Below, one piece after another: positions 33,138 through 44,047 of a stretch of DNA of 64,000 nucleotides. The stretch comes from Escherichia coli. Lineage in GTDB: Bacteria; Pseudomonadota; Gammaproteobacteria; Enterobacterales; Enterobacteriaceae. Numbering within the stretch: the stretch's first letter is position 1; each line of letters starts with the position of its first letter. A program made the position numbers and the translations under genes. The notes beneath the pieces are model-generated. The model saw only the letters and a list, made by a program, of their open reading frames with translations, had not been told where the DNA came from and made no database searches. The DNA is taken from NCBI RefSeq assembly GCF_046105845.1, contig NZ_CP151004.1; one strand, written 5' to 3'.

Positions 33138-33196
33138 AACAACGACACGAATATAGCGTGCGTTGTCTGATGATTTATAAAAATGAGGCTTTAAAC

Positions 33197-34669
33197 ATGG
33201 TACCTGTGGTCGCGCTTGTCGGGCGCCCTAACGTAGGAAAATCCACGTTATTTAACCGTCTAACTCGCACCCGAGATGCGCTGGTTGCGGATTTCCCGGG
33301 TCTGACTCGTGACCGTAAGTACGGTCGTGCAGAAATTGAAGGCCGTGAGTTTATCTGCATTGATACCGGCGGGATTGATGGTACAGAAGACGGTGTAGAA
33401 ACCCGTATGGCGGAACAGTCGCTGCTGGCGATTGAAGAAGCGGACGTCGTACTGTTTATGGTGGATGCGCGCGCGGGCCTGATGCCGGCGGATGAAGCGA
33501 TTGCCAAACATCTGCGCTCCCGTGAAAAACCGACCTTCCTGGTGGCAAACAAAACTGACGGTCTGGATCCCGATCAGGCAGTGGTTGATTTCTACTCGCT
33601 TGGTTTAGGTGAAATCTACCCGATCGCCGCGTCTCACGGTCGTGGCGTATTAAGTCTGCTGGAGCACGTGCTGCTGCCGTGGATGGAAGATCTCGCACCG
33701 CAAGAAGAAGTCGACGAAGACGCTGAATACTGGGCGCAATTTGAAGCGGAAGAGAACGGCGAAGAAGAAGAGGAAGACGACTTCGACCCGCAAAGTCTGC
33801 CAATCAAACTGGCGATTGTGGGTCGTCCGAACGTAGGTAAGTCTACACTCACTAACCGTATTCTTGGTGAAGAGCGCGTTGTTGTTTACGACATGCCTGG
33901 CACTACGCGTGACAGTATCTACATTCCAATGGAACGCGACGGACGTGAGTATGTGCTCATTGACACCGCTGGCGTACGTAAACGCGGCAAAATCACCGAT
34001 GCTGTAGAGAAGTTCTCGGTAATCAAAACGTTGCAGGCCATTGAAGATGCCAACGTGGTGATGTTGGTGATTGATGCGCGCGAAGGTATTTCCGATCAGG
34101 ATCTCTCCCTGCTGGGCTTTATTCTCAATAGTGGGCGCTCACTTGTCATTGTAGTGAATAAGTGGGATGGCCTGAGCCAGGAAGTGAAAGAGCAGGTGAA
34201 AGAAACGCTGGACTTCCGTCTGGGCTTTATCGATTTTGCTCGTGTGCACTTTATCTCAGCCTTGCACGGCAGTGGTGTTGGTAATCTGTTTGAATCAGTA
34301 CGTGAAGCGTATGACAGCTCCACCCGTCGTGTGGGGACCTCTATGCTGACGCGCATCATGACGATGGCTGTTGAAGATCACCAGCCGCCGCTGGTACGTG
34401 GTCGTCGTGTGAAGCTGAAATATGCCCACGCTGGTGGTTATAACCCGCCGATTGTGGTGATTCACGGTAACCAGGTGAAAGACCTGCCTGATTCCTACAA
34501 GCGTTACTTGATGAACTACTTCCGCAAATCGCTGGACGTAATGGGATCGCCGATTCGTATTCAGTTCAAAGAAGGGGAAAACCCGTATGCGAACAAGCGT
34601 AACACCCTGACGCCAACCCAGATGCGTAAACGTAAGCGTCTGATGAAGCACATCAAGAAAAATAAATAA
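33197..34669 (+). CDS. der: ribosome-associated GTPase Der (EngA), tandem GTPase domains
   Basis: Start at [16 protein letters not shown] (490 aa); two P-loops GRPNVGKS. Confidence 0.95.
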
Positions 34670-34738
34670 TTATCCGTAAGTATTTTATCTGCCATTCCCT
34701 CTATGAATGTAGAGGGAATGGCTACCGGAGGAATTCAT

Positions 34739-36351
<1,613 letters not shown>

Positions 36352-38017: not shown

Positions 38018-39595
38018 ATGACGGAAAACATTCATAAGCATCGCATCCTCATTCTGGACTTCGGTTCTCAGTACACTCAACTGGTTGCGCGCCGCGTGCG
38101 TGAACTGGGTGTTTACTGCGAACTGTGGGCGTGGGATGTGACAGAAGCACAAATTCGTGACTTCAACCCAAGCGGCATTATTCTTTCCGGCGGCCCGGAA
38201 AGCACCACCGAAGAAAACAGCCCGCGTGCGCCGCAGTATGTTTTTGAAGCAGGCGTACCGGTATTCGGCGTTTGCTATGGCATGCAGACCATGGCAATGC
38301 AGTTGGGCGGTCACGTTGAAGCCTCTAACGAACGTGAATTTGGCTACGCGCAGGTTGAAGTCGTAAACGACAGCGCACTGGTTCGCGGTATTGAAGATGC
38401 TCTGACCGCAGACGGTAAACCTCTGCTCGATGTCTGGATGAGCCACGGCGATAAAGTTACCGCTATCCCGTCCGACTTCGTCACCGTAGCCAGCACCGAA
38501 AGCTGCCCGTTTGCCATTATGGCTAACGAAGAAAAACGCTTCTATGGCGTACAGTTCCACCCGGAAGTGACTCACACCCGTCAGGGTATGCGCATGCTGG
38601 AGCGTTTTGTGCGTGATATCTGCCAGTGTGAAGCCCTGTGGACGCCAGCGAAAATTATCGACGATGCTGTAGCTCGCATCCGCGAGCAGGTAGGCGACGA
38701 TAAAGTCATCCTCGGCCTCTCTGGTGGTGTGGATTCCTCCGTAACCGCAATGCTGCTGCACCGCGCTATCGGTAAAAACCTGACTTGCGTATTCGTCGAC
38801 AACGGCCTGCTGCGTCTCAACGAAGCAGAGCAGGTTCTGGATATGTTTGGCGATCACTTTGGTCTGAACATTGTTCACGTTCCGGCAGAAGATCGCTTCC
38901 TGTCAGCGTTGGCCGGCGAAAACGATCCGGAAGCAAAACGTAAAATCATCGGGCGCGTTTTCGTTGAAGTATTCGATGAAGAAGCACTGAAACTGGAAGA
39001 CGTGAAGTGGCTGGCGCAGGGCACTATCTACCCTGACGTTATTGAATCTGCCGCATCTGCAACCGGTAAAGCACACGTCATCAAATCTCACCACAACGTG
39101 GGCGGCCTGCCGAAAGAGATGAAGATGGGCCTGGTTGAACCGCTGAAAGAGCTGTTCAAAGACGAAGTGCGTAAGATTGGTCTGGAGCTGGGCCTGCCGT
39201 ACGACATGCTGTACCGTCACCCGTTCCCGGGACCAGGCCTCGGCGTTCGTGTACTGGGCGAAGTGAAGAAAGAGTACTGCGACCTGCTGCGCCGTGCTGA
39301 CGCCATCTTCATTGAAGAACTGCGTAAAGCGGACCTGTACGACAAAGTCAGCCAGGCGTTCACCGTCTTCCTGCCGGTACGTTCCGTTGGTGTAATGGGC
39401 GATGGTCGTAAGTATGACTGGGTTGTTTCTCTGCGTGCTGTCGAAACCATCGACTTTATGACCGCACACTGGGCGCATCTGCCGTACGATTTCCTCGGTC
39501 GCGTTTCCAACCGCATTATCAATGAAGTGAACGGTATTTCCCGCGTGGTGTATGACATCAGCGGCAAGCCGCCAGCTACCATTGAGTGGGAGTGA
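38018..39595 (+). CDS. guaA: GMP synthase (glutamine-hydrolysing)
   Basis: 525 aa; GATase motifs GVCYGMQ, ATP-PPase SGGVDSS; ends ...IEWE. Confidence 0.96.
39581..39595 (+). repeat. left copy of islet-flanking direct repeat (functional guaA 3' end)
   Basis: ATTGAGTGGGAGTGA, 13/15 identical to right copy; encodes IEWE-stop. Confidence 0.75.
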
Positions 39596-39634
39596 GGCTA
39601 TTATTTAAACTATTGTTTTATTTGATTTAGTGAG

Positions 39635-39675
39635 TGCCATTGATGATATTGACTGCATTATCAATGGCATTTTTC
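39635..39675 (+). terminator. islet-borne intrinsic terminator now serving guaA
   Basis: 10-bp stem TGCCATTGAT / ATCAATGGCA with 15-nt loop, followed by TTTTT. Confidence 0.55.
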
Positions 39676-39913
39676 ATGGTATAAGGCCGACGCTGAATCG
39701 AAGATATAGCAAATACCATGTGACCCTATCAGCAAATGCCATGGTATCGACAACCGGGGGCATTGCAGCGCTGTGCTGATGCCATCGATGCCCGCTTTTG
39801 GTCAGAACCGCTCTCTCGACCCAAGCCTCCAGATCGTTAAATATGCGCCAGAGGAGCACCTCGTGATCGAAATTGTGAACAAGACAGCCGCCGCTCGGAA
39901 TCGAAGTATCCAT
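39674..39913 (-). CDS. hypothetical 79-aa ORF inside islet (possible gene remnant)
   Basis: ORF only; no recognisable motifs; Trp-rich; no clear SD. Confidence 0.15.
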   Translation of the reverse strand: MDTSIPSGGCLVHNFDHEVLLWRIFNDLEAWVERAVLTKSGHRWHQHSAAMPPVVDTMAFADRVTWYLLYLRFSVGLIP

Positions 39914-39980
39914 ATGGGTGAATAAAGTTTGCGGAAAACACGCTGAGAAAATAGAAAAGCGTCAATGAAGGGACATAGCA

Positions 39981-41261
39981 ATGGCGATTAACGGAGAGGA
40001 CGGTGTTAGTGCAGTCACCGTGGATGAACTACTCAAGCAAGGCCTTCGGATACCGAACTATCAACGCCCATACAGTTGGGAAGTATCGACCGCTCTACAA
40101 CTGGTGGATGATCTTAGCGAAGCTCTTCGAGATACCGAAAGAAAAGATATTCCCTATGTTTTGGGTGCAATCATTCTTCACGATGATGGTGAGTATCTCA
40201 ATGTAGTCGACGGACAGCAACGTCTGCTGACTTTGCGAATGATTCTTGCGGCCTTAGATCCGATAAATCATCAGATTTCGGTGTCTGGTAACAGCGAAAC
40301 TCCTGTCTCCCTGGTTTGGATAGAGCTTCAAAGGCGCCTGTCGCAGTTGGAAGATAAAAAAGAATTTTTGGATTTTATCTGTCACAAATGTCAGTTGGTG
40401 CGTATTGTGACGGACGATATTGATGAGGCATTTCGTGTCTTTGATTCCCAGAACTATCGCGGCAAACCGCTTGCCCCTCATGACTTGCTCAAAGCACACC
40501 ACCTCCGCGAAATGCACGATGAGTCCGCTGCTATGAAAGTGGCTGTCGTTGAGGCTTGGGAAGCCGTAAATGATGAGGATCTGGACAGGCTTTTTTCTAC
40601 TTTTTTATACCGGATATCCAAGTGGTCACGAGGCGAAAGCTCGCTCGAATTTGCTATTCGGGACATCGGGATGTTTAAGGGAATTTCATCACGATCCCAC
40701 AGATCATTTTCGCCAAATCTGCGATATCACCTTGCAGCACAAGCCGCTATGCCACTTCTAAGTGCATGGGCGGTGTCCTCTACACATGATGCACGAAATG
40801 CCGGGCGCAGCCGCTTTCAGCTTGATGCCCCGATAATCGCTGGGCGCTCATTTTTCGAGATGGTGACATTCATGCTTGACGAATTGAAGATACTGGAAAA
40901 AGAGGTTATCGACAGAGGTTTCAAAAACTTTGGCCCATCTCAAAGTCGCTACCGCTACGTGTACGAATTGTTCATTGCCGCGCTGCTTTGCTATACAAAC
41001 AAGTTTGGCGATGAAGATGTGGATGAAGTGCGAAATAGATTATTCGCATGGGCATATGCCTTGCGGGTCGAGTTACTTCGTGTGCAATTTGTATCTGCTG
41101 ACAACCGAGCTCGAGGTAAAAACGATGCAAATAAATCGCCTTTTGTTTTGCTACGCAACGCGATGACTGGAAGTGTTGTCCGCAAACTTCCAATAGCAAG
41201 TCAGCCATACAACGATAACCACGAAAAGGAACTCGTTGCTTTTATCAAGGGGCTGCAATGA
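39981..41261 (+). CDS. DUF262 (ParB/Srx-like NTP-binding nuclease-family N-terminal domain) protein, no DUF1524
   Basis: Motifs IPNYQRPYSW (40050-40079), DGQQRL (40209-40226), FRVFDSQNYRGKPLAPHDLLKAH; SD AAGGGA upstream; 426 aa. Confidence 0.85.
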   Translation: MAINGEDGVSAVTVDELLKQGLRIPNYQRPYSWEVSTALQLVDDLSEALRDTERKDIPYVLGAIILHDDGEYLNVVDGQQRLLTLRMILAALDPINHQISVSGNSETPVSLVWIELQRRLSQLEDKKEFLDFICHKCQLVRIVTDDIDEAFRVFDSQNYRGKPLAPHDLLKAHHLREMHDESAAMKVAVVEAWEAVNDEDLDRLFSTFLYRISKWSRGESSLEFAIRDIGMFKGISSRSHRSFSPNLRYHLAAQAAMPLLSAWAVSSTHDARNAGRSRFQLDAPIIAGRSFFEMVTFMLDELKILEKEVIDRGFKNFGPSQSRYRYVYELFIAALLCYTNKFGDEDVDEVRNRLFAWAYALRVELLRVQFVSADNRARGKNDANKSPFVLLRNAMTGSVVRKLPIASQPYNDNHEKELVAFIKGLQ

Positions 41262-43210
41262 GCAAGAAGGAGTTGAGACCCGAACTGATAACAGTAGGCA
41301 AGCTATTCACGGGCTATTATCTGATTCCTATTTATCAACGGAACTATGCTTGGCGGGCCGAACAGATTGAGCAACTTATCAGCGATATTCAAGGCTCGGT
41401 GGTTGGGGGCCAGGACGACTATTTTCTTGGGAACCTTGTTGTAATCAAGCGGGGTAGAGAGGACGAGTTCGAGGTCATAGATGGACAACAACGACTTACA
41501 ACCCTCTATCTGCTTCTGACCTTCCTGGAGCAAGACGGTGAGGGTGGGAAGCTGTCGATTGGCCATGCAGGCCACTTGCAATATGAGTCGCGCGCACGGG
41601 CAACGGAAGCCCTGCGGCGAGTAGCACAGGAGGCGGCTAAGGGGCACGTCCGACCGCAGGGCTCCACGAGTAATGCAGATGCTGGCATCCATGAAGGCTA
41701 CAGCATCATCAATCAGTTCTTCAAACAAAATGAAACCCTTAATCGCTCACGCGAAAAATTCTCCGATTTCTTGCTAAAGAAGGTTACTGTCGTCCGTGCC
41801 TCGCTGCCACCCAATACCGACCTCAATCGCTACTTCGAGATCATGAACACTCGTGGGCAGCAACTCAAGCAGGTTGATATTGTTAAGGCTCGCCTGATGA
41901 GCAAGCTGCCCAATCAATATGAACGCGAATGCTTCGCGTGGGTTTGGGATGCCTGTGCTGACATGGATTCTTATGTCCAGATGTCTCTGACCCGTGGTGA
42001 CACCAGTTTACGAAACAAAGTATTTGGCGATGAATGGTCCTGGCTGGAGGTGACCAGCTTCGCGTCGCTAATGGAAAGTCGTCCGCAATCCGACATCAGT
42101 TCATTAAGGCAATCCTCCGAAGGGGTATCGTTGTCCTTGGATGAGGCGTTGTCAAAATACGCTAAAGAGATCGAGTCAAATTCCACTGAAGACGAGGGCA
42201 ACGAGCGGTTTCGTTCGACTATTGAGTTTCCGGCCTTTCTGCTACACGTTCTAAGAATTATGAAAGGCGATGAGGTCGAAGACGAAGGCCAGCTTGACGA
42301 CAAGCGCCTCATCAAGTCATTTGACGACGCCGTAAATAATGTACCCGATGCTAAAGCCGATTGGGTGCGTAGCTTTGCATTTATGCTTCTTAAGTGCCGT
42401 AACCTCTTCGATGGCTTCATCTTGAAGCGTCAATTCACGGCGAACATCGGTGACGATGGCGATTGGTCTCTCCAGCGATTGAAGAAAGGCGGTGCGGACA
42501 AGAAGCCAGCCCCGACGTACATCCATGTTTTCTCGGCCAGCAATGGAAACTTGGAGGAGGACAGCGGTGCTGACCCACATACCCGAGATGTATTGTTGCT
42601 TCAGTCCATGCTTCGGATTACCTACACTTCTCCGCGAACGATGCACTGGATTACCAAAGTTCTTCGCTGGCTATCCGTTAAAGCCCCTCAAGACGCGAAA
42701 CATGCGGATCTTGCCGATTTGTTGAAGGGGTATGCCCGCAGCAAGGTTAAAGAGACATTCCCCTTTGAGGAAGATCAGCAACCACAAGGGTTTGGTATCA
42801 GCCGTATCGTCTTTTCATACCTCGACTATCTTCTGTTGAGTGATTCCTCAAAACGAGATTTCAAATTTCAGTTCAGAACTTCCATTGAGCACTTTTATCC
42901 ACAGCATCCGGACAAAGAACAGTCGGGCGCGGCTGTTTCAGGTTCTAGCCTTAACCTGCTTGGCAACCTCGCGCTCGTAAGCGTCAGCGCGAACTCAAAA
43001 TTCAGCAATAGCCTTCCCAGAGCGAAGGCCGAAAACTTCAAGGATACGATTGAACTTCAAAGTCCCAAGCTCAAGAGAATGGCGGAAATCGCTCGAAATA
43101 CAAGCTGGGACGATCAGCAGATAACAGCACATCATGAAGAGATGGTGACATTGCTTCGTGATGATGTAAGTCTGGTGGAGGCAAGCGGAAGATCCTACCC
43201 GGGGCGTTGA
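41258..43210 (+). CDS. GmrSD-like fusion protein: N-terminal DUF262 + C-terminal DUF1524 (His-Me finger/HNH-like endonuclease)
   Basis: N-term IPIYQRNYAW, DGQQRL (41480-), FEIMNTRGQQL...DIVKARL; C-term SIEHFYPQH (EH at 42887-42892) and LLGNLALVSVSAN; 650 aa; ATGA start/stop overlap with upstream gene. Confidence 0.85.
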   Translation: MSKKELRPELITVGKLFTGYYLIPIYQRNYAWRAEQIEQLISDIQGSVVGGQDDYFLGNLVVIKRGREDEFEVIDGQQRLTTLYLLLTFLEQDGEGGKLSIGHAGHLQYESRARATEALRRVAQEAAKGHVRPQGSTSNADAGIHEGYSIINQFFKQNETLNRSREKFSDFLLKKVTVVRASLPPNTDLNRYFEIMNTRGQQLKQVDIVKARLMSKLPNQYERECFAWVWDACADMDSYVQMSLTRGDTSLRNKVFGDEWSWLEVTSFASLMESRPQSDISSLRQSSEGVSLSLDEALSKYAKEIESNSTEDEGNERFRSTIEFPAFLLHVLRIMKGDEVEDEGQLDDKRLIKSFDDAVNNVPDAKADWVRSFAFMLLKCRNLFDGFILKRQFTANIGDDGDWSLQRLKKGGADKKPAPTYIHVFSASNGNLEEDSGADPHTRDVLLLQSMLRITYTSPRTMHWITKVLRWLSVKAPQDAKHADLADLLKGYARSKVKETFPFEEDQQPQGFGISRIVFSYLDYLLLSDSSKRDFKFQFRTSIEHFYPQHPDKEQSGAAVSGSSLNLLGNLALVSVSANSKFSNSLPRAKAENFKDTIELQSPKLKRMAEIARNTSWDDQQITAHHEEMVTLLRDDVSLVEASGRSYPGR

Positions 43211-43400
43211 CTTCTTTGAATAACCGCTTTTGGACGAAAGTCCCTTGTGGAGTGCAAGTTGTCAGTCTAAAAGCGTTTTGCGTCAGGCGACACGATCAGT
43301 ACAGCTCCCAGGTTTTCTTACCATGGTATTTTGTGTGGTATCGACATGCAAATATAATGCTATTCTATTGATTTTACAGTGTTTTAAGGCGGCATTAATC

Positions 43401-43415
43401 ATCGAGTGGGAATGA
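43401..43415 (+). repeat. right copy of islet-flanking direct repeat (displaced ancestral guaA 3' end)
   Basis: ATCGAGTGGGAATGA; would encode IEWE-stop; immediately followed by the A-tract/hairpin/T-tract terminator. Confidence 0.75.
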
Positions 43416-43436
43416 TTTGACCCTGCACTATGAATG

Positions 43437-43470
43437 AACAAAACCCTCTGTTACTACAGAGGGTTTTTTA
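43437..43470. terminator. bidirectional intrinsic terminator (ancestral guaA / yfgI)
   Basis: AACAAAA-CCCTCTG-ttacta-CAGAGGG-TTTTTT; A-run upstream and T-run downstream. Confidence 0.8.
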
Positions 43471-43507
43471 TCTTCAAGAATTATAGGCTTGAAGTTACTT
43501 ACATCGA

Positions 43508-44047
43508 TTAATTAAACCAGCTGTCCGATTTGTTCTCTTCTGCTTTGCCCACGCTTTTCATCAGATCGCGACCGCCTTCAGTCATATTTCTGTTTGCGTC
43601 AGCTTCAGATTGCACCACATCGGTTTGCGCAGCTTTGTGCTTCAGTTCCTGATCGATAAATTCGTTTTCTCGCTTAACGCGGGCTTCTTCTTTCGCCAGC
43701 GCCAGTTTTTGTTTCTGAATCTCTAAGCTGCGTAGCTCATCTTCATAACTTTGATCGCGTTTTTTGTCCGCAGTGGCTTCGGCATCCAGTTTATCCTGAC
43801 GAGCTTTCTTATTTGCCGCTGCCGTTGCCGCTCTTTTGTTAGCGGCGGCCTGGGCGTTTGCGCGACGTTGCTTCTCTTGCTGGATTTCCCTGTTGCGCTC
43901 CGCGACCCATTCGTCATGCTGCCTTTGCTCTTCATTTTTACCTTGCTGTTCCGCTTCTGCGACAGCAGAGAGTTGATCCTGCAATGATGAGGCGATAGCC
44001 GGATAGCTTAAGGAGGCTAAGATGGCGCAAAGAAAAACTTTCTTCAT
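43508..44047 (-). CDS. yfgI: DUF4223-type periplasmic coiled-coil protein YfgI
   Basis: 179 aa; signal peptide; Lys/Glu/Gln-rich; synteny. Confidence 0.85.
   Translation of the reverse strand: MKKVFLCAILASLSYPAIASSLQDQLSAVAEAEQQGKNEEQRQHDEWVAERNREIQQEKQRRANAQAAANKRAATAAANKKARQDKLDAEATADKKRDQSYEDELRSLEIQKQKLALAKEEARVKRENEFIDQELKHKAAQTDVVQSEADANRNMTEGGRDLMKSVGKAEENKSDSWFN

What the first reader, a model, noticed from the sequence alone, without database searches (positions are those of the whole stretch)
39596..43415. ~3.8 kb accessory islet inserted at the 3' end of guaA carrying a two-gene DUF262 / DUF262-DUF1524 module
guaA ends at 39595 but its expected terminator and the convergent neighbour yfgI do not follow directly. 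Instead ~3.8 kb intervenes, containing two co-directional, overlapping non-housekeeping genes. From memory, in E. coli K-12 guaA and yfgI are immediate neighbours. The islet is delimited by a duplicated guaA 3' end, and the ancestral terminator sits on its far side. Insertion that regenerates the target gene's 3' end is typical of site-specifically integrated islands, and the cargo domains (ParB-like DUF262, His-Me finger DUF1524) are the hallmark of GmrSD-type modification-dependent restriction enzymes. A separate DUF262-only partner translationally coupled to a complete GmrSD-like enzyme is not an arrangement I can match to a named defense system, so this is the best candidate for an undescribed system in the window.
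Basis: partly seen in the sequence, partly recalled or inferred. Interest (0 to 1): 0.9.

Follow-up and report, generated by a model that had tools for sequence, protein, structure and literature searches.

The report
Known two-gene restriction cassette at guaA
A 3.8-kb cassette inserted at the end of the guaA gene carries a two-protein restriction system of a kind already described (TgvAB, also called the GmrS1/GmrSD2 doublet), whose tested relatives block T4-like phages with sugar-modified DNA; it is real and accessory, but not a new system.

Summary
About 3,820 bp lie between guaA and its ancestral terminator and yfgI. They carry two overlapping genes: P1 (426 aa, DUF262 + DUF7834) and P2 (650 aa, DUF262 + DUF1524). 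Only 78 of 5,426 complete E. coli genomes have the islet, and 4,571 have the empty junction.

The claim that the system is undescribed fails.
- The architecture matches two systems that were tested experimentally: TgvAB of Vibrio cholerae (2024) and GmrS1/GmrSD2 of E. coli ECOR17 (2025). In both, both genes are needed to restrict T-even phages.
- P1 and P2 match their counterparts one to one, at 27-33% identity over near-full length.
- Near-identical proteins (95-99%) are already listed as TgvAB hits in Vizzarro et al., Table S5.
- They are also listed as clusters CLS_016/CLS_017, one of three "two-gene systems" in Silas et al. 2025.

The "duplicated guaA end" is the attachment site of guaA-specific integrases (GIsul2/PIME family), with the 8-bp core GAGTGGGA at both ends. 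The islet has no integrase.

The same cassette, with the same ends, occurs in six enterobacterial genera, on plasmids, and at the far end of a complete PIME element in E. coli EcPF16. It resembles the CR2-sul2 unit of GIsul2.

Verdict: already known, low interest.

The parts
38018..39595 (+). guaA (GMP synthase). Its last codons contain the attachment site. The protein end ...IEWE* is preserved after insertion.
   Evidence: ORF; RefSeq annotation of a strain that is 99.8% identical over the islet query.
39584..39591 (+). Left copy of the 8-bp core GAGTGGGA (attL). The homology to empty-site strains ends right after it: the window reads GAGTGGGA|GTGA, K-12 reads GAGTGGGA|ATGA.
   Evidence: The core is as defined for GIsul2 in PMC9376610.
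39592..43411 (+). The inserted cassette, 3,820 bp, counted with the right-hand core copy. It has no integrase gene.
   Evidence: Comparison with the empty site. The same two ends are present in all 15 contexts aligned, and the left end in two further species.
39635..39674 (+). 13-bp hairpin followed by a T-run, 40 nt after the guaA stop. It is a likely replacement terminator for guaA, brought in by the cassette.
   Evidence: Inverted repeat I10. RNA fold gives -19.1 kcal/mol, z = -3.5. Conserved in all nine aligned copies. Its function is inferred.
39596..39980 (+). Non-coding leader of the cassette.
   Evidence: No Rfam match and no consensus sigma-70 promoter on the + strand. The antisense ORF 39674-39913 is broken by indels in other copies and has no PHROG match.
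39981..41261 (+). P1, the TgvA / GmrS1-type partner: DUF262 NTPase-like domain (aa 19-175) plus DUF7834 helical domain (aa 186-414), with no nuclease domain. The DGQQR motif is at aa 77-81 (nt 40209-40223).
   Evidence: Cluster CLS_017 assignment by accession.
41258..43210 (+). P2, the TgvB / GmrSD2-type enzyme: DUF262 (aa 15-214), linker, DUF1524 His-Me finger (aa 521-631). DGQQR is at aa 75-79 (nt 41480-41494). Catalytic E544-H545 (nt 42887-42892) align with E582-H583 of ECOR17 GmrSD2.
   Evidence: Cluster CLS_016 assignment by accession.
43211..43403 (+). Non-coding tail of the cassette. Its last ~18 nt (43386-43403) resemble the guaA end. This is the element-side arm of attR.
43404..43411 (+). 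Right copy of the core GAGTGGGA (attR), followed by the ancestral sequence ATGATTTGACCC...
43440..43475 (+). Ancestral guaA intrinsic terminator, displaced to the far side of the cassette.
   Evidence: Identical to the sequence that follows guaA in the empty site.
43508..44047 (-). yfgI, the convergent neighbour of guaA in empty-site strains.

Best explanation
**What it is.** The islet is an integrase-less module flanked by attachment sites. It sits in the chromosomal attachment site of guaA-specific tyrosine integrases (the GIsul2/PIME family, 8-bp core GAGTGGGA).

**What it carries.** Its cargo is a two-gene, modification-dependent (Type IV) restriction system of the TgvAB / GmrS1-GmrSD2 kind.
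- P1 has a DUF262 domain and a DUF7834 domain.
- P2 has a DUF262 domain, a linker, and a DUF1524 His-Me finger nuclease domain.

**How it most likely works (inferred from the tested relatives).**
- P1 and P2 act together. Both DUF262 nucleotide-binding sites are needed to sense hypermodified phage DNA, most likely glucosyl-hydroxymethylcytosine of T-even phages.
- The nuclease domain of P2 then cuts that DNA.

**How it got there (inferred).** There are two routes, both made by such an integrase:
- integration of the cassette on its own, catalysed in trans; or
- deletion of the rest of a PIME element between attL and an internal att site.

**Shown versus inferred.**
- Shown here: the anatomy, the homology, the catalogue membership, the att structure and the horizontal spread.
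- Inferred: the phage target, the P1-P2 complex and the present mobility.
For: **Architecture and motifs**
- P1 and P2 have the domains stated above.
- P1 and P2 each keep QR, DGQQR and FxxxN. P2 also keeps EH...N...N.

**One-to-one homology to tested systems**
- P1 vs ECOR17 GmrS1: 31% identity, E=8e-57. P2 vs GmrSD2: 33% identity over 675 columns, E=8e-90.
- P1 vs TgvA: 27% over 377 aa, E=4e-28. P2 vs TgvB: 28% over 414 aa, E=3e-34. Each window protein matches its own counterpart better than the other component.
- DUF7834 is present in P1, in GmrS1 and in TgvA.

**Already catalogued**
- An E. coli plasmid copy and the EcPF16 copy carry WP_000037308 (CLS_016) together with WP_004182042 or WP_000996724 (CLS_017). 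The plasmid proteins are 94.8% (P2) and 97.4% (P1) identical to the window's.
- Table S5 of PMC11411939 lists proteins 99% (P1) and 95% (P2) identical, over the 399 aa shown there, as TgvA and TgvB hits.

**Function of relatives**
- In both tested systems both genes are required, T2/T4/T6 are restricted, and DGQQR and nuclease mutants are dead (PMC11014532, PMC11411939, PMC12373910).

**The two genes are a unit**
- The P1-type then P2-type operon is kept at 62-68% identity in Pseudoduganella, in a contig carrying the Bordetella avium-type protein, and in a metagenome contig, all in unrelated neighbourhoods.

**Attachment sites**
- GAGTGGGA is the GIsul2 core at guaA (PMC9376610).
- The same left junction (...AGTGGGA|GTGAGGCTATT) and right junction (...GATCATCGAGTGGG(A)|) occur in all 15 contexts aligned, from E. 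coli, Klebsiella, Serratia and Proteus, Kluyvera-like assemblies and a plasmid. Kluyvera sichuanensis and Providencia rettgeri show the same left junction at guaA.
- In EcPF16 the cassette lies at the far end of a complete element, between an internal core and attR. The integrase of that element is 87% identical to the GIsul2 integrase.
- The GIsul2 internal site attLR (TTTACAATCGAGTGGGA|GTGACGGG) parallels the cassette's left junction.

**Horizontal transfer**
- The cassette genes are 96-98% identical across genera, where guaA is 74-87% identical.
Against: - No experiment on this allele is available to me.
- Identity to the tested systems is only 27-33%, so the target specificity could differ.
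- The text of PMC12373910 says five further systems were active but does not say whether CLS_016/017 was one of them.
- The PIME preprint's "previously characterized" T2/T4/T6-specific system from E. coli PIMEs is probably this cassette in EcPF16. Its references and figures are not readable here.
- No consensus sigma-70 promoter was found in the leader, so expression may depend on read-through or on a non-consensus promoter.
- No integrase lies in the window, and nothing shows that the cassette still excises.
Confidence: 0.8

Rival explanations
1. It belongs to the same family but has a different target. The pair would recognise another DNA modification (for example non-glucosylated hmC, other hypermodified bases, or phosphorothioate as SspE does), or would be inactive against T-even phages.
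Against: Both tested doublets, which are themselves only 24-31% identical to each other over the local BLASTP matches, target T-even phages. No dnd or ssp modification genes accompany the cassette in any context seen. The PIME preprint reports a known system from E. coli PIMEs that blocks only T2, T4 and T6.
Confidence: 0.2
2. This is the first reader's view: an undescribed defence system whose DUF262-only partner makes it distinct from any named system.
For: NCBIfam has no model for either protein. The 2023 PADLOC release only gives partial hits to the single-gene families HEC-06, Orf5 and SspE. RefSeq calls both proteins just 'DUF262 domain-containing protein'.
Against: The arrangement was named and tested as TgvAB in 2024 and as GmrS1/GmrSD2 in 2025. 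This exact cassette is listed in both papers' supplementary tables. All three first partners (P1, GmrS1 and TgvA) share DUF262 + DUF7834.
Confidence: 0.03
3. The islet is a dead remnant. A full PIME/GIsul2-type element once sat at guaA and lost its integrase and core by deletion. The cassette would now be fixed and spread only vertically or by homologous recombination of its flanks.
For: There is no integrase in the islet. In EcPF16 the cassette is the distal part of a full element. A deletion between attL and the internal core would give exactly the window's left junction. In E. coli the cassette falls into a few sequence types at about 99.9%, 97.9% and 96.1% identity, which fits lineage inheritance.
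Against: The bare cassette sits directly at guaA in E. coli, a Kluyvera-like assembly, Kluyvera sichuanensis, Serratia, Proteus and Providencia. Its genes are 96-98% identical to the window's where measured, while guaA is 74-87% identical. This needs repeated precise transfers. The cassette also lies behind three unrelated upstream modules and on plasmids, always with the same ends. The GIsul2 integrase is shown to move the analogous integrase-less CR2-sul2 unit.
Confidence: 0.3
4. P1 is not a co-sensor. It would be an accessory factor, for example a decoy or guard that counters phage inhibitors such as the internal proteins (IPI*, Ip3), or a regulator of P2 toxicity.
For: Vizzarro et al. raise this possibility for TgvA. 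In ECOR17 the two genes together are toxic when induced, and neither alone is reported to be. P1 lacks any nuclease domain.
Against: DGQQR mutations in TgvA alone abolish defence. So the partner's nucleotide site is needed for restriction itself, including against phages without known inhibitors. P1 keeps all DUF262 motifs.
Confidence: 0.15

Closest known systems
TgvAB of Vibrio cholerae VPI-2 (VC1767/VC1766; PMC11014532, PMC11411939)
   Same: The gene order is the same and the ORFs overlap. TgvA has DUF262 + DUF7834 and TgvB has DUF262 + DUF1524. Homology is component by component: P1-TgvA 27%, P2-TgvB 28%. Proteins 95-99% identical to the window's are listed as hits of the authors' TgvAB model.
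   Different: Identity to TgvAB itself is low. TgvAB is embedded in a Type I restriction-modification operon in VPI-2, whereas this copy sits alone at guaA. The overlap is 8 bp in tgvAB and 4 bp here. The phenotype of this allele has not been shown.
GmrS1/GmrSD2 doublet of E. coli ECOR17 (CLS_003/004) and the catalogue of Silas et al. 2025 (PMC12373910)
   Same: The architecture is the same, and both components are homologous over nearly their full length (31% and 33%). The catalytic E-H of GmrSD2 aligns with E544-H545 of P2. The window's pair belongs to clusters CLS_016/CLS_017 in the same catalogue. From the paired accessions, I take that pair to be one of the paper's three two-gene systems.
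   Different: It is a different cluster from the tested ECOR17 pair, and the proteins are shorter (426/650 aa against 483/680 aa). Whether it is blocked by T4 Ip3, and whether the synthesised CLS_016/017 representative was active, is not stated in the text I could read.
Single-chain GmrSD-family enzymes (Eco94GmrSD/CT596 GmrSD, BrxU, HEC-06) and SspE
   Same: P2 has their DUF262-linker-DUF1524 layout and motifs. PADLOC HEC-06 and SspE models hit both proteins. SspE, 9jfl and BrxU are the best structural matches of the P1 model.
   Different: Those enzymes work as one polypeptide. Here a second, nuclease-less DUF262 + DUF7834 protein is encoded upstream, and in the tested relatives it is indispensable. 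Sequence matches to the solved structures cover only the N-terminal ~90 residues.
GIsul2 and its internal CR2-sul2 unit (PMC9376610)
   Same: The target is the same (the 3' end of guaA), and the 8-bp core GAGTGGGA is repeated at both ends. Like CR2-sul2, the cassette has no integrase of its own. Inside larger elements it lies between an internal att site and attR, and its left end begins GTGA right after the core.
   Different: The cargo is a phage-defence operon, not sul2, and there is no ISCR2/rcr2 gene. Movement of this cassette by an integrase has not been tested.
PIMEs, the integrative mobilizable elements at guaA (bioRxiv 10.64898/2026.01.12.698999)
   Same: In E. coli EcPF16 the cassette (about 96% nt identical) is the distal cargo of such an element: int, regulators, repA, traJ, trbJ, trbL, other cargo, then P1-P2. 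The preprint describes these elements as reservoirs of immune systems.
   Different: The window has none of the PIME core genes (int, alpA, rep, trb). Only the cargo module and its att sites are present.

Membership tests
[quoted passage not shown] | N-terminal DUF262 (GmrSD_N, ParB-like NTPase) with QR, DGQQR and FxxxN motifs | tested here: met
   Pfam E=1.5e-27 for P1 and 4.9e-33 for P2. DGQQR is at P1 aa 77 and P2 aa 75. YQRPY/YQRNY and FDSQN/FEIMN are visible in the alignment.
[quoted passage not shown] | C-terminal DUF1524 (GmrSD_C) His-Me finger with catalytic (D/E)H ... N ... N | tested here: met
   P2 aa 521-631, E=4e-14. IEHFYPQHP...GNLALVSVSANSKFSN aligns with the mutated E582/H583 region of ECOR17 GmrSD2. 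P1 has no such domain.
[quoted passage not shown] | Cleavage depends on modified (glucosyl-hmC / hmC) DNA and is stimulated by NTP | not testable with these tools
   This needs plaque assays with T4 glc-hmC, hmC and C variants, and in vitro digestion.
Two-gene TgvAB / GmrS1-GmrSD2 doublet | Upstream gene is DUF262-only; downstream gene is DUF262 + DUF1524; same strand; overlapping or abutting ORFs | tested here: met
   (ATGA overlap). The same pairing is seen in relatives at 62-68% identity.
Two-gene TgvAB / GmrS1-GmrSD2 doublet | The first partner carries the DUF7834 helical domain after DUF262 | tested here: met
   P1 E=1e-54; ECOR17 GmrS1 E=1.4e-76; TgvA residues 1-399 E=7e-38. This shared feature is my own observation, not a published definition.
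Two-gene TgvAB / GmrS1-GmrSD2 doublet | Each component is homologous to its counterpart in the tested systems | tested here: met
   P1-GmrS1 E=8e-57 and P2-GmrSD2 E=8e-90. P1-TgvA E=4e-28 and P2-TgvB E=3e-34. Each window protein matches its own counterpart better than the other component.
Two-gene TgvAB / GmrS1-GmrSD2 doublet | Detected by the authors' own models or catalogues | tested here: met
   Accessions WP_000037308 (CLS_016), WP_004182042 and WP_000996724 (CLS_017) annotate cassette copies about 96% identical in nucleotide sequence. The TgvAB Table S5 lists proteins 99% and 95% identical.
Two-gene TgvAB / GmrS1-GmrSD2 doublet | Both genes are necessary and together sufficient for defence against T-even phages | not testable with these tools
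   Shown for TgvAB and for ECOR17, but not for this allele.
GIsul2 / PIME guaA-integrating elements | Insertion at the 3' end of guaA with the core GAGTGGGA repeated at both ends | tested here: met
   Cores at 39584-39591 and 43404-43411, the only two in the window. The core definition is in PMC9376610.
GIsul2 / PIME guaA-integrating elements | Own tyrosine integrase next to guaA, plus alpA, rep and trb core genes | tested here: not met
   The only ORFs of 150 aa or more between the two cores are P1 and P2, and RefSeq annotates only these two genes. So the islet is not itself a GIsul2/PIME element. The full set is present in EcPF16 and in GIsul2 on R485.
Integrase-less att-flanked unit (CR2-sul2-like, cis-mobilizable element) | Bounded by two att sites of a known integrase; found both alone at attB and inside full elements between an internal att site and attR | tested here: met
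   Directly at guaA in the window, L001, L004, L006, L008-L010, L021 and L022. Behind other modules in L002, L005, L007 and L011-L015. The cassette has the same two ends in every locus aligned and the same left junction in L021 and L022. The direct junction is present in 52 E. coli genomes.
Integrase-less att-flanked unit (CR2-sul2-like, cis-mobilizable element) | Excision and integration when the integrase is supplied in trans | not testable with these tools
   Shown for CR2-sul2. It needs a two-plasmid trap assay for this cassette.

The most novel reading that the evidence does not exclude
The 3.8-kb cassette may be a free-standing, integrase-less defence module that guaA-specific integrases (GIsul2/PIME) move in trans, as they move the CR2-sul2 unit. 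If so, defence modules would stack and swap at guaA in an integron-like way across Enterobacterales. I found no mention of internal att sites, tandem arrangement or cassette-wise exchange of defence cargo in the PIME preprint: a search of its text for attL, attR, attP, tandem, remnant and degenerate found nothing.
Probability: 0.35. Interest if true: 0.45.

Novelty: already known. Interest (0 to 1): 0.2.

Why it matters
The finding mainly corrects an overcall. The best "undescribed system" candidate of the window is a catalogued member of a two-protein Type IV restriction family that has been tested experimentally.

Two modest points remain useful.
- DUF7834 is shared by the first partner in all three compared systems (this cassette, ECOR17 GmrS1 and TgvA). 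It could therefore serve as an annotation marker for the doublet. NCBIfam and the 2023 PADLOC release do not name the doublet.
- The cassette has exact GIsul2-type att ends and no integrase, in six genera and on plasmids. That makes it a clean test case for trans-mobilisation of defence cargo at the guaA hotspot.

Why a complete GmrSD-like enzyme needs a nuclease-less paralogue is still an open mechanistic question in the literature. This locus does not make it more tractable than the published systems do.

Tried and rejected
- **NCBIfam.** No model matched either protein.
- **PADLOC 2023.** It gave only partial hits to the single-gene families HEC-06, Orf5 and SspE. HEC-06 is a one-gene system, so I did not file the pair under it.
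- **PHROGs.** Only families of unknown function matched.
- **Rfam.** Nothing matched across 39400-43700.
- **Promoter scan.** No + strand sigma-70 consensus site lies upstream of P1.
- **Antisense ORF 39674-39913 (79 aa).** I considered it as a possible third gene and rejected it. One-base indels break it in other copies, and it has no PHROG match.
- **Solved structures by sequence.** Only the first ~90 residues match, to 9jfl and SspE.
- **Was CLS_016/017 among the five newly active systems of Silas et al.?** I could not find out. The text does not say, and figures are not held.
- **Which "previously characterized" system did the PIME preprint test?** I could not find out. No reference list or supplements are held.
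- **Genome-contig scan with the cassette's left end.** It found only two species representatives, Kluyvera sichuanensis and Providencia rettgeri. That fits a sporadic accessory element.
- **Integron, IS or Xer origin of the repeats.** I considered these from memory and dropped them once the GIsul2 core was confirmed in the literature.

Full report
**1. The observation**

guaA ends at 39595. Two co-directional ORFs follow, at 39981-41261 (P1, 426 aa) and 41258-43210 (P2, 650 aa). They overlap by the 4 bases ATGA, and each has a good ribosome-binding site. yfgI lies at 43508-44047 on the minus strand.

The hairpin and T-run at 43440-43475 are identical to the sequence that directly follows guaA in K-12-type strains.

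Counts in 5,426 complete E. coli genomes:
- 78 carry at least 80% of the islet. Three more carry fragments. Two of the copies are on plasmids.
- 52 have the direct guaA-cassette junction seen in the window.
- 4,571 have the empty junction.

So the islet is real and accessory.

**2. The cargo**

Pfam gives these domains:
- P1: GmrSD_N/DUF262 (aa 19-175) and DUF7834 (aa 186-414).
- P2: GmrSD_N (aa 15-214) and GmrSD_C/DUF1524 (aa 521-631).

Both proteins keep the DUF262 motifs QR, DGQQR and FxxxN. P2 also keeps the His-Me finger residues E544-H545 and the downstream asparagines.

An AlphaFold model of P1 (pLDDT 81) is an N-terminal alpha/beta domain followed by an all-helical domain, with no beta-beta-alpha nuclease finger. 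Its best structural matches are other DUF262 defence proteins: SspE, the DUF262 chain of entry 9jfl (DndBCDE-DndI system) and BrxU.

**3. It is a described system**

Two 2024 papers define TgvAB of Vibrio cholerae. TgvA has DUF262 only, and TgvB has DUF262 + DUF1524. The ORFs overlap. Both genes are needed and are together sufficient against T2, T4 and T6. DGQQR mutants of either protein and nuclease mutants of TgvB are dead. The target is glucosylated hmC.

A 2025 paper shows the same for the GmrS1/GmrSD2 doublet of E. coli ECOR17, which is blocked by T4 Ip3. It also catalogues three two-gene systems among enterobacterial GmrSD clusters.

I rebuilt the ECOR17 and TgvAB sequences from the papers' supplements and compared them with the window's proteins.

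| Pair | Identity | E-value |
|---|---|---|
| P1 vs GmrS1 | 31% | 8e-57 |
| P2 vs GmrSD2 | 33% over 675 columns | 8e-90 |
| P1 vs TgvA | 27% over 377 aa | 4e-28 |
| P2 vs TgvB | 28% over 414 aa | 3e-34 |

Each window protein matches its own counterpart better than the other component. GmrS1 and TgvA also carry DUF7834.

Near-identical copies of the cassette are already in both catalogues:
- **Silas et al. clusters.** The copy on an E. coli KPC plasmid carries WP_004182042 and WP_000037308, which are 97.4% and 94.8% identical to P1 and P2. The copy in strain EcPF16 carries WP_000996724 and WP_000037308. These accessions are members of CLS_017 and CLS_016. Adjacent accession pairs such as QLW22507/QLW22508 make CLS_016/017 a gene pair. 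I take it to be one of the paper's three two-gene systems, although the text names only CLS_003/004 and CLS_018/019.
- **Vizzarro et al. Table S5.** It lists proteins from Shimwellia blattae and Pectobacterium brasiliense (99% identical to P1) and from a Klebsiella pneumoniae plasmid (95% identical to P2) as TgvA and TgvB hits.

The P1 family is large. I found 2,241 hits, and the top 120 all have DUF262 + DUF7834. The two-gene order is kept at 62-68% identity in Betaproteobacteria, in unrelated neighbourhoods.

**4. The insertion site**

The 30-nt duplication is 73% identical. It contains an exact 8-bp repeat, GAGTGGGA, at 39584-39591 and 43404-43411. These are the only two copies on the + strand of the window.

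This is the published core of the GIsul2 attachment site at the 3' end of guaA (PMC9376610). The crossover keeps the guaA reading frame: GAGTGGGA|GTGA replaces GAGTGGGA|ATGA, and both end in ...EWE-stop.

In all 15 contexts I aligned, the cassette has the same left junction (...AGTGGGA|GTGAGGCTATT) and the same right junction (...GATCATCGAGTGGG(A)|). Kluyvera sichuanensis and Providencia rettgeri, found separately, show the same left junction at guaA.
- It lies directly after guaA in E. coli, Proteus, Serratia, a Kluyvera-like assembly, Kluyvera sichuanensis and Providencia rettgeri.
- It lies behind other cargo in Klebsiella pneumoniae, in two further enterobacterial assemblies, in E. coli EcPF16 and on a plasmid.

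The cassette genes are 96-98% identical across these genera, while guaA is 74-87% identical.

In EcPF16 the cassette is the last module of a complete element: int, regulators, repA, traJ, trbJ, trbL, HigA, PIN, NERD, YecA, then P1-P2. Cores lie at attL, just left of the cassette, and at attR. That element is the PIME1 of a 2026 preprint, which describes guaA-integrating mobilizable elements as reservoirs of immune systems. Its integrase is 87% identical to the integrase of GIsul2 on plasmid R485.

The internal attLR site of GIsul2, TTTACAATCGAGTGGGA|GTGACGGG, mirrors the cassette's left junction. The GIsul2 integrase is known to move the integrase-less CR2-sul2 unit that lies between attLR and attR.

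The window has no integrase. The islet is therefore not a PIME or GIsul2 element. It is an att-flanked module of the kind those integrases can move or leave behind.

**5. Mechanism and confidence**

- **Shown here:** anatomy, motifs, homology, catalogue membership, att structure and horizontal spread.
- **Inferred from tested relatives:** P1 and P2 act together, and both nucleotide sites are needed to sense glucosyl-hmC DNA. The P2 His-Me finger then cuts it.
- **Inferred origin:** integrase-mediated insertion in trans, or deletion of a PIME core.
- **Main uncertainties:** the target specificity at 27-33% identity, expression (no consensus promoter), and whether the cassette is still mobile.

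**6. Verdict**

The novelty claim is not supported. The system is already known. What remains is a modest lead on cassette-wise exchange of defence cargo at the guaA site.

Noticed in passing
E. coli complete genomes, guaA-yfgI junction (window 39584-43475 as reference): Only 4,571 of 5,426 genomes have the uninterrupted guaA-terminator junction. So about 16% carry something at or near this site. The cassette studied here accounts for 78 of them. IS insertions and sequence divergence are included in that 16%.
   Followed up: partly
L006 8425-9300 (enterobacterial assembly, Logan ERR2760211): After the cassette's right-hand core comes about 1 kb that starts like the left end of the EcPF16 PIME (ATAATTTAACGTCTGGCAACAGCCTGCACG...). 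It encodes a Phd/YefM-type antitoxin and a 110-aa protein, but no integrase and no third core. It looks like a decayed second element stacked at the same site.
   Followed up: partly
L011-L014 1-4331 (Klebsiella pneumoniae): The cassette is preceded by a 1,028-aa N6/N4 methyltransferase and a 1,120-aa ResIII-type helicase/nuclease. The core at that junction is degenerate (AGTAGTGGGA). In L005 the upstream module is a methyltransferase plus a Bpu10I-type restriction enzyme. In L007 it is a resolvase plus UvrD_C_2 plus DUF2290. So different defence-like modules stack in front of the same cassette.
   Followed up: no
L002 7107-10918 (E. coli plasmid p1-LC-1302-2020-KPC3) and hit H88: The whole cassette sits on two large plasmids, between IS1 and a Phd/YefM antitoxin next to polymerase V (umuD and Y-family polymerase) genes. 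The left arm resembles the internal att site of PIME-type elements. The right core is cut to GAGTGGG|TAAC, which suggests a secondary or truncated site.
   Followed up: partly
Hits H47-H49, H89, H23; L015 23938-26250: IS elements are active at this locus. An ISSen4 transposase is annotated within the cassette match in several E. coli strains. IS66 lies between the cassette and yfgI in EcPF16. An IS200C transposase lies within the guaA-yfgI match of one strain that lacks the cassette.
   Followed up: no
window 39635-39674: A 13-bp hairpin with a T-run lies 40 nt after the guaA stop, inside the cassette. It is conserved in all nine aligned copies. It probably replaces the displaced guaA terminator. 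If it is efficient, P1-P2 need a promoter of their own, which the consensus scan did not find.
   Followed up: partly
window 34669-34951 vs L016 23088-34885 (E. coli A10): Strain A10 has a nearly identical cassette. It also carries an ~11-kb sinH-sinI-giant adhesin island between yfgJ and xseA. The window lacks that island: der at 33158-34669 is followed closely by xseA at 34951-36321. So the window is not from A10, and this second site is also polymorphic.
   Followed up: no
L001 7859-9799 (E. coli A10): RefSeq annotates the A10 copy of P2 as ending 12 nt earlier than the window's P2 (646 aa against 650 aa), although the DNA is 99.95% identical. I did not check whether a point change creates an earlier stop.
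   Followed up: no
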